Part shown: in pieces, positions 553 to 6,500 of the stretch
Numbering within the stretch: position 1 is the stretch's first letter
Layout of the letters: each line of letters starts with the position of its first letter
DNA from: Escherichia coli O157:H7
Lineage (GTDB): Bacteria > Pseudomonadota > Gammaproteobacteria > Enterobacterales > Enterobacteriaceae
Reading direction: 5' to 3' (one strand)
Assembly (NCBI RefSeq): GCF_013167455.1
Contig: NZ_CP038328.1
DNA length: 64,000 bases
Made by a program: the position numbers

Positions 553-3500
553 ATCTCAATATCAGATCTTACATGCGCCGCTTTCGCAGCCATCGTCCTG
601 GATTGACGGCACCAGATCGTCCTGCGCGTCTTCAGCGCCGTCACGGGTGTTCTGATAATACAGCGTTTTGACCCCGAATTTGTAGGCGGTGAGCAGGTCT
701 TTCAGCAACTGCTGCATCGGCACTTTTCCTGACGGGAAGCGTGACGGATCGTAGTTGGTGTTAGCAGAGATCGACTGATCGATAAATTTCTGCATGATAC
801 CCACCAGTTGCAGGTAGCCATCGTTACCCGGCATTTCCCACAGCAGCTCATAGGCGTCGTGCAGATGCTCGTAGTCCGGCACCACCTGGCGCAGAATACC
901 GTCTTTCGACGCTTTGATGCTGACGTAACCGCGCGGCGGTTCAATACCGTTAGTAGCGTTAGAGATCTGCGAAGAAGTCTCGGACGGCATCAGAGCAGAA
1001 AGCGTGGAGTTACGCAGGCCGTGTGTTTTGATTGACTCACGCAGAGCTTCCCAGTCGTAATGCAGCGGTTCATTAGCGATGGCATCCAGATCTTTCTTAT
1101 AGGTATCGATCGGCAGGATCCCTTTCGCGTAAGTGGTTTCGTTAAACCACGGGCACGCGCCTTGCTCTTTCGCCAGCTCATTAGACGCTTTCAGCAGGTA
1201 ATACTGAATCGCTTCGAAGGTTTTATGCGTCAGGTTGTTGGCGCTGCCGTCGGAGTAGCGTTTACCATGCTTCGCCAGGTAGTAAGCGAAGTTGATCACA
1301 CCAATACCCAGCGTACGACGACCCATCGCTCCACGTTTGGCGGCCGGGATCGGGTAATCCTGATAATCCAGCAGCGCGTCAAGTGCACGAACCGCCAGAA
1401 TTGCCAGCTCTTCCAGTTCATCCAGGCTATTAATTGCGCCCAGGTTGAAAGCAGACAGCGTACACAGCGCGATTTCACCGTTCTCGTCGTTGACGTCGTT
1501 CAGCGGTTTGGTCGGCAGGGCTATCTCCAGGCACAGGTTAGACTGACGCACTGGCGCGATGGCCGGATCAAACGGGCTATGGGTATTGCAGTGGTCAACG
1601 TTCTGAATATAGATACGACCGGTAGACGCACGTTCCTGCATCATCAGCGAGAACAGCTCAACGGCTTTCACACGCTGCTTGCGGATGCTGTCGTCTTTCT
1701 CATATTTGGTATACAGGCGTTCAAACTCTTCCTGATCGGCGAAGAATGCGTCGTACAGCCCCGGTACGTCGGACGGGCTGAACAGGGTGATATCTTCACC
1801 TTTCAGCAGGCGGGTATACATCAGTTTGTTGATTTGTACCCCGTAGTCCATATGACGCACGCGGTTGCCTTCCACACCACGGTTGTTTTTCAACACCAGC
1901 AGGCTTTCCACTTCCAGATGCCACATCGGGTAGAACAGCGTTGCCGCACCGCCGCGCACGCCGCCCTGAGAGCAGGATTTCACCGCAGTCTGGAAATGTT
2001 TGTAGAACGGAATGCAGCCGGTATGGAACGCTTCGCCACCGCGAATCGGGCTACCCAGCGCACGAATACGCCCGGCGTTGATGCCGATCCCGGCACGCTG
2101 GGAAACATATTTCACAATCGCGCTGGAGGTGGCGTTGATGGAATCCAGGCTGTCGCCGCACTCGATCAGTACGCAGGAGCTGAACTGACGAGTCGGGGTA
2201 CGCACGCCGGACATGATTGGCGTCGGCAGCGAAATTTTAAATGTGGAAACCGCGTCGTAAAAACGCTTCACATATTGCAGGCGCGTTTCACGCGGGTAGT
2301 TCGAGAACAGGCACGCAGCAACCAGAATATAAAGGAACTGGGCGCTTTCGTAGATTTCGCCGGTCACACGGTTCTGTACCAGATATTTGCCTTCCAGTTG
2401 CTTAACGGCAGCATAAGAGAAGGTCATATCACGGTCGTGATCGATAAACGTGTCCATCTGCTTGAACTCTTCTTCCGTGTAGTCTTCCAGCAGATGATTA
2501 TCGTATTTGCCCATCTCGACCATTTTCACCACGTGGTCGTACAGCGCAGGCGGCTCAAACTGGCCGTAGGCTTTTTTACGCAGGTGGAAGATCGCCAGGC
2601 GCGCGGCGAGATACTGATAATCCGGCGCATCACGGGAGATCAGGTCTGCGGCAGCCTTGATAATGGTTTCGTGGATGTCAGAGGTCTTGATACCGTCATA
2701 AAACTGAATGTGGGAGCGCAGCTCGACCTGGGAAATCGAAACGTTATGCAGTCCTTCTGCCGCCCAATCCAGAACGCGATGGATTTTGTCGAGATTGATG
2801 CGCTCTGTGCTACCGTCGCGCTTTGTCACCAGCAGATTCTGATTCATGTATGTCGTACCTGTTTTTGGAATTCTTTCCGCAATAGTTTCGTGCAGACTAC
2901 CTGTAGTACGGGAAGCTGCTTAGAACACTATATATAGGGGGTATGTTTGGGATTCACTGCAAGATAGTGTGAAAATGGCCCTCTTGCAAGTGCATAACTT
3001 TGTGGATAACTCAGGAAGGAAAAAGTGGCTTTCGCGCACCTTAGGTCAGACAAGGTGTCCGGGAAAGTCAATGGGAAGAGAAAAATTTGTTATAAATAAC
3101 TGTTCGGCGATTTCTTGAACGGCAGAATAGGTTGGATAAATTGATATAGATGGTTTATTAATCTTTTTGCTAATGATTGCAAAAATTGATCTAAGCACGA
3201 GTCATCACATAATCTGATGTATCAGTTGTGGTCAATATATAAGCGAATGTAAGCGATTGTTGATGTCGAAATGGTTGTTTTCTATTCGGTTATTGTTAAA
3301 TGCGAAGCCATTTTGTTAATTTGCCTTATATTATAAGAAAATTATTCATTACTTTAATTTAGTTTAAATATAACTGGTATCCCTTAAGGTTATTAACTTG
3401 AATTATGACGCACTGATACTATTCATCAAATAATAACAAAATAGCTATTGCATCGGGTTGGACAATTTACAAAAGAAAGATAACCCATATTGTATAATGC

Positions 3501-6500
3501 GTTTAAATATGCCGTCTTATATAAAATGATGGTCAGATTAATATGCGGGTTATCTTTCTACGCAAGGAGTATTTATCTCTACTCCCGTCAATGATTGCAT
3601 CTCTTTTCTCTGCTAACGGTGTCGCGGCGGCCATTGATTTATGCCAGGGATATGATATCAAAGCGAGTTGTCACGCCAGCAGGCAAAGCCTTTCAGGCAT
3701 TACGCAGGTCTGGAGTATTGCCGATGGGCAATGGCTGGTTTTTTCGGATATGACCAATAATGCCAGCGGTGGGGCCGTATTTTTGCAACAAGGAGCGGAA
3801 TTTACATTATCACCAGAAAATGAAACTGGAATGACTCTGTTTGCCAATAACACCGTTTCAGGAGAATATAATAACGGCGGGGCAATATTTGCTAAAGAAA
3901 ACTCAACGCTGAATCTTACGGATGTTATTTTTTCTGGTAACGTCGCAGGCGGCTATGGTGGCGCAATCTATTCTTCTGGTACTAACGATACCGGTGCCAT
4001 CGATTTACGTGTCACTAACGCCGTGTTTCGCAATAACATCGCTAATGACGGCAAAGGTGGTGCAATTTATACCATCAATAATGATATCTATTTAAGTGAT
4101 GATGTTTTTAACAATAACCAGGCATATACATCAACAAGTTACAGTGATGGCGATGGCGGCGCAATCGATGTCACAGATAATAATAGCGACAGCAAGCATC
4201 CTTCAGGTTATACGATAATAAATAACACTGCCTTTACAAATAACACTGCCGAAGGTTATGGCGGGGCGATATATACCAATAGCGCGACGGCTCCCTATCT
4301 TATTGATATTTCTGTTGATGACAGCTACAGCCAGAACGGAGGCGTGTTAGTCGATGAGAACAATAGCGCAGCAGGCTATGGAGATGGTCCTTCCTCTGCG
4401 GCGGGTGGCTTTATGTATCTCGGCTTAAGTGAAGTTACCTTTGATATTGCCGACGGAAAAACGCTGGTTATTGGCAATACAGAGAATGACGGAGCTGTTG
4501 ACTCTATTGCTGGTACCGGGTTAATCACCAAAACAGGTTCCGGCGATCTGGTACTTAATGCAGATAACAATGACTTTACTGGTGAGATGCAGATTGAAAA
4601 CGGTGAAGTTACCCTGGGCCGCAGCAACTCCCTGATGAATGTCGGCGATACGCATTGCCAGGACGATCCGCAAGACTGCTACGGTCTGACGATAGGGAGT
4701 ATTGATAAGTACCAGAATCAGGCAGAGCTAAATGTTGGCTCCACCCAACAAACCTTTGCGCACTCATTGACGGGCTTTCAGAATGGCACTTTAAATATCG
4801 ATGCTGGTGGCAATGTTACTGTTAATCAAGGCAGTTTTGCTGGCACCATCGAAGGTGCTGGTCAGCTCACCATTGCGCAAAACGGCAGCTATGTGCTGGC
4901 GGGGGCGCAGTCGATGGCGCTAACCGGCGATATAGTGGTGGATGCTGGTGCGGTGCTTTCGCTGGAAGGCGACGCGGCAGATCTTGCCGCTCTCCAGGAC
5001 GATCCGCAGTCGATCGTGTTAAACGGCGGTATGCTCGATCTCTCTGATTTCTCCACCTGGCAGAGCGGTACATCATACAAAGATGGCCTTGAAGTCAGTG
5101 GCAGCAGCGGAACGGTTATCGGCAGTCAGGATGTGGTAGATCTTGCAGGCGGAAACGATATGCATATCGGCGGCGACGGGAAAGATGGCGTCTACGTGGT
5201 GATCGATGCGGGTGACGGGCAGGTCAGCCTGGCAAATGACAATCAATACCTCGGCACAACGCAAATCGCTTCCGGTACGCTGATGGTGAGCGACAACTCG
5301 CAGCTTGGATATACCCATTATAACCGCCAGGTTATCTTTACCGATAAGCCACAAGAAAGCGTGATGGAGATTACTGCCAATGTCGATACTCGCTCTACAA
5401 CGACTGAGCATGGGCGTGATATTGAAATGCGCGCCGACGGTGAAGTGGCAGTTGATGCGGGGGTAGACACGCAGTGGGGCGCACTGATGGCTGACAGCAG
5501 CGGGCAGCATCAGGATGAGGGTAGCACATTGACTAAAACGGGGGCGGGTACACTGGAGCTGACCGCCAGCGGTACAACGCAGTCAGCGGTGAGAGTAGAA
5601 GAGGGCACGCTGCAAGGTGATGTTGCGGATATCTTCCCTTATGCTTCGTCGCTATGGGTCGGTGACGGGGCAACGTTCGTTACTGGCGCGGATCAGGATA
5701 TTCAGTCAATTGATGCTACTTCCAGCGGCACTATCGACATCAGCGATGGTACGGTTTTGCGCCTGACCGGGCAGGATACTTCCGTCGCCCTTAATGCCTC
5801 ACTGTTTAACTGCGATGGGACGCTGGTGAATGCCACCGATGGTGTGACGTTGACAGGTGAGCTTAATACCAACCTTGAAACTGACAGCCTGACTTATCTT
5901 TCCAACGTGACGGTTAATGGCAATCTGACCAATACGTCCGGTGCGGTTAGCCTGCAAAATGGCGTCGCTGGCGATACGCTGACGGTAAACGGTGATTATA
6001 CCGGCGGCGGTACGCTACTGCTCGATAGCGAATTAAACGGCGATGACTCGGTAAGCGATCAATTGGTGATGAACGGTAATACTGCTGGCAACACAACTGT
6101 GGTGGTTAACTCCATTACAGGGATTGGTGAGCCGACATCGACAGGCATTAAAGTGGTTGATTTCGCAGCTGATCCCACGCAGTTTCAAAACAATGCGCAG
6201 TTCAGTCTGGCAGGCAGCGGCTACGTCAATATGGGAGCGTATGACTACACGCTGGTGGAAGATAACAACGACTGGTATCTGCGATCGCAAGAAGTAACGC
6301 CGCCATCGCCACCTGATCCAGACCCGACTCCCGATCCTGATCCCACGCAGGATCCTGATCCAACACCCGACCCGGAACCTACGCCTGCTTACCAGCCGGT
6401 GTTGAATGCCAAAGTTGGCGGTTATCTCAATAACCTGCGGGCGGCAAATCAGGCGTTTATGATGGAGCGACGCGATCACGCAGGTGGCGATGGTCAGACG

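What the first reader, a model, noticed from the sequence alone, without database searches (positions are those of the whole stretch)
3007..3542. Long AT-rich leader upstream of the yfaL autotransporter gene
About 540 bp of strongly AT-rich, non-coding DNA precedes yfaL. This is typical of H-NS-silenced surface-protein genes and suggests yfaL is cryptic under standard conditions.
Basis: inference. Interest (0 to 1): 0.3.

Follow-up and report, generated by a model that had tools for sequence, protein, structure and literature searches.

The report
H-NS-bound AT-rich spacer before yfaL
The AT-rich DNA in front of the E. coli adhesin gene yfaL is real, but it is an already catalogued H-NS-bound "promoter island" that shares its spacer with the control region of the neighbouring nrdAB genes, so it is ordinary and not shown to be an mRNA leader.

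Summary
Window 3007-3542 has 31.7% GC against 51.4% for the window, and it is the most AT-rich 536-bp stretch in 64 kb. It ends exactly at the yfaL start codon.

The stretch has two parts:
- **3007-3121 (43% GC):** conserved upstream control DNA of the divergent nrdAB operon, with DnaA boxes and HusR sites. RefSeq places the ORF ypaB here, but ypaB is not conserved as a gene.
- **3122-3542 (29% GC):** a fast-diverging spacer. Escherichia species share only 47-50% identity here, yet keep the same length and GC. Enterobacteria without yfaL have ubiG directly next to nrdA and lack this spacer.

The K-12 orthologue, 95% identical in the spacer, is a published "promoter island". H-NS binding there is reported by four studies' tables, and RNA polymerase binds it in vitro.

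The H-NS reading is therefore supported by published binding data and is already known. Three points remain open:
- I found no evidence that the region is transcribed as a leader.
- I found no hns-mutant expression data for yfaL.
- O157 yfaL deletion mutants lose adherence to HEp-2 cells, so silencing is conditional.

A 13-bp perfect inverted repeat brackets the start codon but is lineage-specific, with no significant covariation.

The parts
562..2847 (-). nrdA coding sequence (class Ia ribonucleotide reductase alpha subunit), divergent neighbour of yfaL
   Evidence: 761-aa ORF. RefSeq annotation of a record identical over 2848-3542.
2848..2956 (-). nrdA 5' untranslated region. Contains NrdR box 1 (about 2925-2940, CCCCTATATATAGTGT on the minus strand) and box 2 (about 2893-2908, with a central AG).
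   Evidence: Sequence read directly. Box architecture as described in PMC12176259. The transcription start about 110 nt upstream of the ATG is from my own knowledge (Tuggle & Fuchs), not tested here.
2961..2989 (-). nrdAB core promoter: -10 TATCTT (2961-2966), 17-nt spacer, -35 TTGCAA (2984-2989)
   Evidence: Sequence read directly. Nearly invariant across Escherichia: 4 variable sites in 54 bp over 2957-3010.
2989..3009 (-). Two tandem DnaA boxes (TTATGCACT and TTATCCACA on the minus strand)
   Evidence: Sequence. The phage P1 record annotates its homologous segment as 'two predicted DnaA boxes'. DnaA is listed as a regulator of nrdAB.
2975..3118 (+). Annotated ORF ypaB (47 aa). Probably not a real conserved gene; the DNA conservation is better explained by regulatory sites.
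   Evidence: RefSeq annotation. Start codon lost in B2, premature stop in three Escherichia species, variable sites 6/4/6 by codon position. No Pfam hit.
3012..3063 (.). HusR (YnfL) binding motifs: CAGGAAGGAAAAAGTG (3012-3027) and CAGACAAGGTGTCCGG (3048-3063)
   Evidence: Motif sequences listed for the gSELEX peak between ypaB and nrdA in PMC12844172 match the window sequence.
3007..3121 (.). The part of the finding that is conserved nrdAB upstream control DNA (GC 0.426)
   Evidence: The BLAST hit 2500-3121 (nrdA 5' end plus this block) is 92-97% identical in E. whittamii, Escherichia sp. E1V33 and an E. coli-clade genome. In E. albertii it is 90% identical and extends to 3190. Homology to yfaL-less enterobacteria also ends near 3121. 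GC.
3122..3542 (.). AT-rich, fast-diverging spacer (GC 0.287): the core of the finding and the proposed H-NS platform
   Evidence: GC. 47-50% identity between Escherichia species, with length 420-425 bp and GC 0.26-0.29 retained. Absent from yfaL-less relatives.
3058..3591 (.). Published 'promoter island' 2342143_534, mapped approximately from K-12 coordinates
   Evidence: PMC3661553 Table 1. Mapping uses K-12 annotation and the gap-free K-12 alignment. In this window 8 of all 48 sigma-70-like hexamer pairs fall here, the unique maximum; the tool's scan gave 8 against 3.2 +/- 1.7 in shuffles.
3186..3213 (+). Sigma-70-like promoter TTGATC-16-CATAAT, proposed for yfaL from RNA polymerase genomic SELEX. 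If used, it would give a leader of about 320 nt.
   Evidence: Shimada 2014, PMC3946193. Same site found by the consensus scan. The -10 element is not conserved in other Escherichia species. No transcription start data found.
3493..3498 (+). Perfect TATAAT 45 bp upstream of the yfaL ATG. Candidate proximal -10, with no properly spaced -35.
   Evidence: Sequence. TATAAT in 7 of 11 E. coli haplotypes and CATAAT in the 4 B2-like ones. Not conserved in other Escherichia species. Function untested.
3474..3486 (+). 5' arm (AGAAAGATAACCC) of a 13-bp perfect inverted repeat
3547..3559 (+). 3' arm (GGGTTATCTTTCT) of the inverted repeat, spanning yfaL codons 2-6. As RNA the stem would enclose the AUG.
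   Evidence: Found. RNA fold of 3465-3570 gives -27.5 kcal/mol, z = -3.84. A perfect repeat of 13 or more arose in 1 of 300 shuffles. It is 13/13 only in the O157-like haplotype, and covariation is not significant.
3528..3589 (.). ChIP-exo peaks P16 and P17 assigned to yfaL in the GadEWX study, mapped approximately from K-12
   Evidence: PMC4918353 supplementary table: positions 2342146-2342207, a regulation column 'N' and no distance-to-TSS value. The part I read does not name the factor. The main text says yfaL is among genes 'regulated by GadE and GadX'.
3543..7295 (+). yfaL/ehaC, a classical (type Va) autotransporter adhesin. Its 5' third is also AT-rich (GC 0.455 for 3543-4800 against 0.543 for the rest).
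   Evidence: ORF. RefSeq name. Pfam PF03797 beta-domain, AC_1, PATR and PMP repeats. GC.

Best explanation
Window 3007-3542 is most of the 695-bp divergent spacer between nrdA and yfaL, and it has two parts.

The first ~115 bp (3007-3121) are conserved upstream control DNA of the essential nrdAB operon.

The remaining ~420 bp (3122-3542, 29% GC), together with the AT-rich 5' third of yfaL, belong to an Escherichia-specific insertion carrying yfaL between ubiG and nrdA. This AT-rich tract acts as a binding platform for H-NS, the nucleoid protein that coats AT-rich DNA. It is also unusually dense in sigma-70-like promoter sequences, the published 'promoter island' pattern.

The proposed mechanism is that H-NS filaments, together with unproductively bound RNA polymerase, occupy the tract. 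This keeps productive yfaL transcription low under standard laboratory growth, with relief under particular conditions or by particular regulators.

Shown here: the composition, the promoter-motif density, the conservation pattern and the insertion. Shown in the literature, for K-12 and two commensal strains: H-NS occupancy and in-vitro RNA polymerase binding. Inferred: that this occupancy is what silences yfaL, that it applies to this strain, and that the tract is promoter or upstream DNA rather than a transcribed leader.
For: Composition and promoter density:
- It is the lowest-GC stretch in the window, with high TpA-step and A/T-tract content.
- 8 of the window's 48 promoter-like hexamer pairs lie in these 534 bp; the next-best 534-bp window has 3.

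Published binding data:
- The K-12 orthologue is a listed promoter island bound by H-NS in all three ChIP data sets compared.
- It is marked 'HNS' in the RNA polymerase SELEX study, which also reports a constitutive RpoD site there.
- The Higashi 2016 ChAP-seq table scores the yfaL coding region as H-NS-bound and both the yfaL and nrdAB-yfaE transcription units as H-NS-bound, while the ubiG and nrdA coding regions are not.
- The window differs from K-12 by only 5% in the spacer.

Foreign origin:
- Three yfaL-less Enterobacteriaceae contigs have gyrA-ubiG-nrdA-nrdB-yfaE with a ubiG-nrdA spacer of 340-353 bp. Homology to the window stops near 3121.
- yfaL carries a horizontal-transfer prediction code.

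Fast evolution typical of H-NS-bound DNA:
- yfaL has dN 0.061 and dS 0.36, against nrdA 0.001 and 0.07.
- The spacer is 47-50% identical between Escherichia species while length and GC are kept.

Low expression in K-12:
- No distance-to-TSS value is listed for the ChIP-exo peaks at yfaL.
- A constitutive promoter had to be inserted to obtain YfaL phenotypes.
Against: - No H-NS data exist for this strain.
- I found no accessible measurement of yfaL expression in an hns mutant, so repression is inferred from occupancy.
- The published 10-bp high-affinity H-NS motif is not enriched: one 1-mismatch copy at 3133-3142, and 72 matches window-wide against 60 +/- 8 expected.
- yfaL deletion mutants of O157:H7 EDL933 and SS17 lose HEp-2 adherence, so yfaL is expressed in at least some conditions in the lineage whose haplotype the window matches.
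- H-NS is also reported to repress nrdAB, so part of the occupancy may serve nrdAB rather than yfaL.
Confidence: 0.75

Rival explanations
1. The tract is a long transcribed 5' leader of the yfaL mRNA that controls expression after transcription starts, through RNA structure, a small-RNA target or an attenuator. This is what the finding's title implies.
For: A sigma-70-like promoter at 3186-3213, proposed from RNA polymerase SELEX, would give a leader of about 320 nt. A 13-bp perfect inverted repeat (3474-3486 with 3547-3559) would enclose the AUG in such a transcript: -27.5 kcal/mol, z = -3.84, and only 1 of 300 shuffles reached 13. Among E. coli haplotypes two pairs show both-side changes, G-C to A-U and C-G to U-A.
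Against: No transcription start data support the upstream promoter, and its -10 is not conserved in other Escherichia species. There is no Rfam hit even at E <= 1 and no terminator-like site. The spacer is only 47-50% identical between species. The stem is 13/13 only in the O157-like haplotype and 8-9/13 in B2. Pair counts do not exceed shuffles, with 96 of 500 reaching the observed value, and RNAalifold does not choose the stem. The whole putative leader folds only marginally better than shuffles, z = -1.86.
Confidence: 0.07
2. The AT-rich tract mainly serves nrdAB, as far-upstream regulatory DNA for growth-phase or cell-cycle control and H-NS repression of ribonucleotide reductase. yfaL silencing would then be incidental.
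For: The spacer is shared and divergent. H-NS is listed as a repressor of class Ia RNR genes. The nrdAB-yfaE transcription unit is scored H-NS-bound. Five of the eight promoter-like sites point toward nrdA. HusR, DnaA and NrdR sites lie at 2893-3063.
Against: Conservation across Escherichia stops sharply at about 3121, roughly -165 relative to the nrdA start. yfaL-less relatives run nrdA with only 340-353 bp of upstream spacer and lack this tract. The tract is continuous in composition with the 5' end of yfaL.
Confidence: 0.12
3. The tract is unconstrained junk left by the insertion that has drifted toward AT. H-NS binds it simply because it is AT-rich, with no consequence for either gene.
For: Sequence identity between species is close to saturation. 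The specific H-NS motif is not enriched. No conserved RNA or ORF was found.
Against: Length (420-425 bp) and GC (0.26-0.29) are retained in seven lineages despite ~50% sequence divergence. Several short blocks remain invariant, for example AAAATTGAT, TTTACAA and a ~24-bp block at about 3278-3301. The region is kept in 5423 of 5426 complete E. coli genomes.
Confidence: 0.08
4. The region is a phase-variation switch like the agn43 Dam/OxyR region, an invertible element, or a slipped-strand repeat.
For: yfaL is an autotransporter adhesin, a class that is often phase-variable (own knowledge). [quoted passage not shown]
Against: There is only one GATC in 3007-3600, at 3187-3190 (sequence). There is no long homopolymer or short tandem repeat, and no inverted repeats flanking a promoter segment other than the 13-bp pair.
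Confidence: 0.02

Closest known systems
E. coli 'promoter islands' (Panyukov & Ozoline 2013, PMC3661553)
   Same: The K-12 orthologue of this exact region is one of the 78 listed islands (2342143_534, yfaL/ypaB). The window reproduces the defining properties: about 69% AT, an extreme local density of sigma-70-like sites (8 of the window's 48 in 534 bp), association with a horizontally acquired gene, and reported H-NS occupancy.
   Different: Nothing substantive. The window strain differs from K-12 by 5% in the spacer. The original PlatProm scoring was not rerun; a simpler hexamer criterion was used.
H-NS xenogeneic silencing of AT-rich acquired genes, with faster sequence diversification of H-NS-bound DNA (Higashi 2016, PMC4720273)
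   Same: An AT-rich upstream region and 5' coding region, an Escherichia-specific insertion, H-NS bound in ChAP-seq, and dN and dS several-fold above the flanking core genes.
   Different: Derepression of yfaL in an hns mutant was not found in the literature I could read. The silenced gene shares its spacer with an essential, highly expressed operon (nrdAB).
The ompC-micF-rcsD spacer in the same window (27021-27758)
   Same: The second most AT-rich stretch in the window (GC 0.344 over 738 bp). It is also a divergent spacer, and the ompC-micF spacer is marked 'HNS' in the same SELEX table.
   Different: It encodes a known small RNA (micF). It has at most 3 promoter-like hexamer pairs per 534 bp, against 8 at yfaL.
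The agn43 (flu) regulatory region, the best-studied E. coli autotransporter control region (own knowledge; agn43 phase variation is described in PMC3764049)
   Same: An intergenic control region upstream of an autotransporter adhesin.
   Different: By my own knowledge, agn43 is switched by Dam methylation of three GATC sites competing with OxyR. Here there is a single GATC and no such cluster, so the logic is composition-based silencing rather than an epigenetic switch.

Membership tests
Promoter island / H-NS-silenced xenogeneic region | AT content far above the genome average over at least 300 bp | tested here: met
   GC 0.317 (3007-3542) and 0.287 (3122-3542) against 0.514 for the window; lowest 0.1% of 536-bp windows.
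Promoter island / H-NS-silenced xenogeneic region | Extreme local density of potential sigma-70 start sites | tested here: met
   8 promoter-like hexamer pairs in 534 bp against 0.75 per kb window-wide. It is the unique maximum; the next-best window has 3. The tool's scan gave 8 against 3.2 +/- 1.7 in shuffles. I used a simpler criterion than the original PlatProm, but the K-12 orthologue is in the published list.
Promoter island / H-NS-silenced xenogeneic region | H-NS occupancy in vivo | not testable with these tools
   Literature only, for K-12, SE11 and SE15: 'A: according to all studies', 'HNS', ChAP-seq TRUE. There are no data for the window's strain.
Promoter island / H-NS-silenced xenogeneic region | Association with a horizontally acquired gene | tested here: met
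   yfaL plus the spacer is absent between ubiG and nrdA in three other Enterobacteriaceae contigs. Published horizontal-transfer predictions agree.
Promoter island / H-NS-silenced xenogeneic region | Low transcriptional output that rises when hns is deleted | not tested
   No accessible hns-mutant expression data for yfaL were found. Indirect evidence: no distance-to-TSS value is listed for yfaL, and a constitutive promoter was needed to see phenotypes. Counter-evidence: O157 yfaL deletion phenotypes.
Structured 5' leader / cis-regulatory RNA | Match to a described RNA family, or a conserved and covarying structure | tested here: not met
   No Rfam hit at E <= 1. The spacer is 47-50% identical between species. 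For the only strong stem, shuffles match the observed pairing in 96 of 500, and RNAalifold does not select it.
Structured 5' leader / cis-regulatory RNA | The region is transcribed as part of the yfaL mRNA | not testable with these tools
   Only a predicted promoter at 3186-3213. No start-site data were found.
nrdAB promoter and upstream regulatory region | Core promoter, tandem DnaA boxes and NrdR boxes upstream of nrdA | tested here: met
   -10 at 2961-2966, -35 at 2984-2989, DnaA boxes at 2989-3009, NrdR boxes at about 2893-2940, HusR motifs at 3012-3063. The block is conserved up to about 3121.
Protein-coding gene ypaB | ORF maintained, with a coding-type substitution pattern across relatives | tested here: not met
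   ATG changed to CTG in B2, W18 changed to a stop in three Escherichia species, variable sites 6/4/6 by codon position. No Pfam family.
Type Va (classical) autotransporter, for yfaL itself | C-terminal beta-barrel translocator plus passenger and autochaperone domains | tested here: met
   PF03797 (1.4e-33, residues 989-1228), AC_1, PATR, PMP repeats and Pertactin.

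The most novel reading that the evidence does not exclude
The spacer may be selected for composition and length rather than sequence. It keeps about 420 bp and 26-29% GC across Escherichia species despite ~50% sequence divergence. 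On this reading it is a dedicated H-NS landing pad that insulates the essential nrdAB promoter from the foreign yfaL gene. In addition, in the O157-like lineage, the 13-bp stem joining the upstream DNA to codons 2-6 would block translation of any read-through transcripts started at the island's many spurious promoters. Only transcripts from a proximal start, which lack the 5' arm, would then make YfaL.
Probability: 0.08. Interest if true: 0.4.

Novelty: already known. Interest (0 to 1): 0.15.

Why it matters
The significance is modest. The result confirms that the YfaL/EhaC adhesin gene, in a strain whose haplotype here matches O157:H7, sits behind a textbook H-NS target. Its expression is therefore likely to depend on conditions or regulators that counteract H-NS, which is relevant to adherence studies.

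Three practical points follow for annotation:
- The tract should not be called a leader without transcription start data.
- Its first ~115 bp are nrdAB control DNA.
- The annotated gene ypaB is probably a spurious ORF lying over conserved regulatory sites.

No open question is resolved or newly opened.

Tried and rejected
- **Rfam:** scanned at a permissive threshold over 2500-4000; nothing found.
- **Terminators:** none found.
- **H-NS motif:** the 10-bp high-affinity motif TCGATAAATT is not enriched.
- **Public genome scan:** an exact 20-mer from the nrdA DnaA-box pair was meant to retrieve other enterobacteria. Synteny in yfaL-less relatives was recovered through UbiG homologues instead.
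- **The 13-bp inverted repeat as a conserved RNA switch:** rejected as unproven. It is lineage-specific, covariation is not significant, and RNAalifold ignores it.
- **ypaB as a real gene:** rejected.
- **Dam/OxyR-type phase switch:** rejected, because there is only one GATC.
- **Literature dead ends:** Cendra 2013 and Roux 2005 are not held. No supplements are held for Ueda 2013, Kahramanoglou 2011 or Singh 2014. The Pch/H-NS O157 supplements do not mention yfaL. The 'b2233' search gave only irrelevant hits.
- **Caveat:** intergenic coordinates beyond 52292 in that list are invalid. The window carries about 9.5 kb that the reference record used for annotation lacks. The sliding-window GC result is unaffected.

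Full report
**Locus.** The window is E. coli chromosome. It is 99.985% identical to strain 2017C-4109 over 1-52292. Its 161-bp haplotype at 3440-3600 is identical to O157:H7 genomes. Around the finding, nrdA lies on the minus strand at 562-2847 and yfaL/ehaC on the plus strand at 3543-7295. ubiG (minus strand, 7436-8158) and gyrA (plus strand, from 8305) follow. The finding therefore covers the yfaL-proximal 536 bp of a 695-bp divergent spacer (2848-3542). YfaL is a classical autotransporter, with Pfam matches to PF03797, AC_1, PATR and PMP repeats.

**The observation.** GC of 3007-3542 is 0.317 against 0.514 for the window. Only 0.1% of 536-bp windows are as low, and the only rival is the ompC-micF-rcsD spacer. 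TpA steps (12.1% against 4.6%) and A/T tracts are enriched.

Two refinements apply. First, the tract is not uniform: 3007-3121 has GC 0.426 and 3122-3542 has GC 0.287. Second, RefSeq annotates a 47-aa ORF, ypaB, at 2975-3118.

**ypaB.** The ORF fails a conservation test. Its start codon is CTG in phylogroup B2. Codon 18 is a stop in E. albertii, E. whittamii and Escherichia sp. E1V33. Variable sites are spread 6/4/6 over codon positions. The DNA beneath it is nonetheless highly conserved, which points to regulatory sites rather than a protein.

**Anatomy of the conserved part.** The following can be read directly from the sequence on the nrdA side:
- the nrdAB -10 (TATCTT, 2961-2966) and -35 (TTGCAA, 2984-2989)
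- two tandem DnaA boxes (2989-3009)
- NrdR boxes in the 5' untranslated region (about 2893-2940; architecture as in PMC12176259)
- two HusR (YnfL) motifs at 3012-3027 and 3048-3063, matching those listed for the gSELEX peak between ypaB and nrdA (PMC12844172)

The BLAST hit covering 2500-3121 is 92-97% identical in three other Escherichia lineages. In E. albertii it is 90% identical and extends to 3190. BLAST homology then vanishes until about 3634-3666, inside yfaL.

**Anatomy of the AT-rich part.** A forced alignment of 3122-3542 gives 95% identity to K-12, 85% to B2 and only 47-50% to the other Escherichia species. Length (420-425 bp) and GC (0.264-0.292) are nevertheless retained in all seven sequences.

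Three Enterobacteriaceae contigs whose UbiG is 85-88% identical to the window's have gyrA-ubiG-nrdA-nrdB-yfaE with a 340-353-bp ubiG-nrdA spacer and no yfaL. Their homology to the window ends near 3121. So yfaL and the AT-rich spacer are an Escherichia-specific insertion next to the nrdAB control region. The tract belongs to yfaL, not to nrdA.

**Promoter density.** Using a simple sigma-70 hexamer criterion, 8 of the 48 sites in the whole 64-kb window fall in this 534-bp stretch. That is the unique maximum; the next-best window has 3. The tool's own scan gave 8 against 3.2 +/- 1.7 in shuffles. Five sites point toward nrdA and three toward yfaL.

**What is already published.**
- Panyukov & Ozoline 2013 list promoter island 2342143_534, yfaL/ypaB, among 78 in K-12. 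It maps to about window 3058-3591. They score it as H-NS-bound in all ChIP studies compared and as associated with predicted foreign genes.
- They report that such islands bind RNA polymerase and form open complexes but give little full-length RNA (abstract).
- Shimada 2014 marks the yfaL-nrdA spacer 'HNS' and proposes TTGATC-16-CATAAT for yfaL, which is window 3186-3213.
- Higashi 2016, S2 Table, scores the yfaL coding region and transcription unit as H-NS-bound by ChAP-seq in at least one of SE11, SE15 and K-12. It scores the nrdAB-yfaE unit as H-NS-bound too, while the nrdA and ubiG coding regions are not. It gives yfaL dN 0.061 and dS 0.36, against 0.001 and 0.07 for nrdA.
- A review lists H-NS as a repressor of class Ia RNR genes.
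- The GadEWX ChIP-exo study lists two peaks straddling the yfaL start, with a regulation column 'N' and no distance-to-TSS value.

**Expression.** In K-12 backgrounds the Ghigo laboratory inserts a constitutive promoter in front of yfaL to obtain biofilm phenotypes. By my own knowledge, Roux et al. 2005 described yfaL as not expressed under laboratory conditions; that paper could not be read here. Against full crypticity, yfaL deletion mutants of O157:H7 EDL933 and SS17 lose adherence to HEp-2 cells. I found no accessible data on yfaL expression in an hns mutant.

**The 'leader' idea.** There is no Rfam match, no terminator-like site and no start-site data. The one notable structure is a 13-bp perfect inverted repeat, 3474-3486 with 3547-3559. 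It brackets a TATAAT (3493-3498) and the ATG. As RNA it folds at -27.5 kcal/mol with z = -3.84, and only 1 of 300 shuffles gave a perfect repeat of 13 or more.

Across 11 E. coli haplotypes the stem is 13/13 only in the O157-like type, 12/13 in several others and 8-9/13 in B2. Two pairs show both-side changes. However, the pairing statistics do not exceed shuffles (96 of 500 reach the observed value), and RNAalifold prefers other pairs. The repeat is absent from other Escherichia species. I treat it as unproven and lineage-specific.

**Conclusion.** The feature is already catalogued. The corrections are:
- It is a shared divergent spacer, not a demonstrated leader.
- Its first ~115 bp are nrdAB control DNA.
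- The AT-rich core arrived with yfaL.
- Silencing is inferred from occupancy and appears to be conditional.

Novelty: already known. Interest: low.

Noticed in passing
window 2971-3100: Phages P1, P7 and SJ46 carry a ~130-bp segment 94.6% identical to this nrdA-upstream stretch (the -35 element, both DnaA boxes and most of ypaB). In the annotated P1 and plasmid copies it lies just upstream of hot, the homologue of DNA polymerase III theta. 235 E. coli plasmid places also match. The P1 record AF234173 already annotates it as identical to an E. coli region with two predicted DnaA boxes and calls an ORF, upfO, over it.
   Followed up: partly
window 2990-3009: The exact 20-mer GTGCATAACTTTGTGGATAA (two DnaA boxes 3 bp apart) occurs in 59 loci from unrelated bacteria, including Paenibacillus, Alkalibacterium, Pectinatus and Massilia. 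These are presumably convergent DnaA-box pairs. Their contexts were not examined.
   Followed up: no
window 2975-3118: The annotated gene ypaB looks like a spurious ORF over conserved nrdAB regulatory DNA: start lost in B2, premature stop in three Escherichia species, and no codon-position bias. A 2026 paper nevertheless reports HusR-dependent 'ypaB' RNA in stationary phase, so some transcription across this stretch may exist.
   Followed up: yes
window 3474-3486 and 3547-3559: A 13-bp perfect inverted repeat brackets a TATAAT and the yfaL start codon. It is perfect only in the O157-like haplotype, and covariation is not significant.
   Followed up: yes
window 52293-61849: The window contains about 9.5 kb that is absent from the otherwise 99.985%-identical genome of strain 2017C-4109. 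The junction falls in or next to the tRNA-Pro gene upstream of yejO, which suggests an integrated element. Its contents were not examined.
   Followed up: no
window 27021-27758: The ompC-micF-rcsD spacer is the second most AT-rich stretch in the window (GC 0.344). The ompC-micF spacer is also marked H-NS-bound in the same SELEX table, but it has far fewer promoter-like hexamer pairs than the yfaL spacer.
   Followed up: partly
L070-L072, about 100 bp upstream of nrdA (alignment A4, columns 350-395): In yfaL-less Enterobacteriaceae the DnaA-box-like sequences (TTATCCACAG ... TGTGGATAA) lie downstream of the NrdR box, in the nrdA 5' region, rather than upstream of the -35 as in Escherichia. The nrdA promoter architecture therefore differs between genera.
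   Followed up: no
L022 about 4960-5010; L082 2566-3336: yfaL is damaged at its 5' end in some genomes. In SCPM-O-B-8794 the ATG seen in E. albertii is out of frame by my reading of the alignment, and the ORF lists only from a GTG downstream of the signal peptide region. In strain UTME-10 an IS1 sits after the position matching window 3505, and the N-terminus of yfaL is missing.
   Followed up: partly
window 7317-7400: A repeat of about 84 bp just after yfaL is 86-88% identical to two tandem copies in the nrdA-nrdB spacer of K-12 (L004 7660-7829). It looks like a REP-type element.
   Followed up: no
window about 3278-3301 and 3230-3255: Two short blocks inside the otherwise saturated AT-rich spacer stay largely conserved across Escherichia species (TTTTnTAnTCnGnnAnTGTnAAAT and TGnTCAnnATnTnAnCnnnTGTAA). 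They may be real binding sites. No factor was assigned.
   Followed up: no
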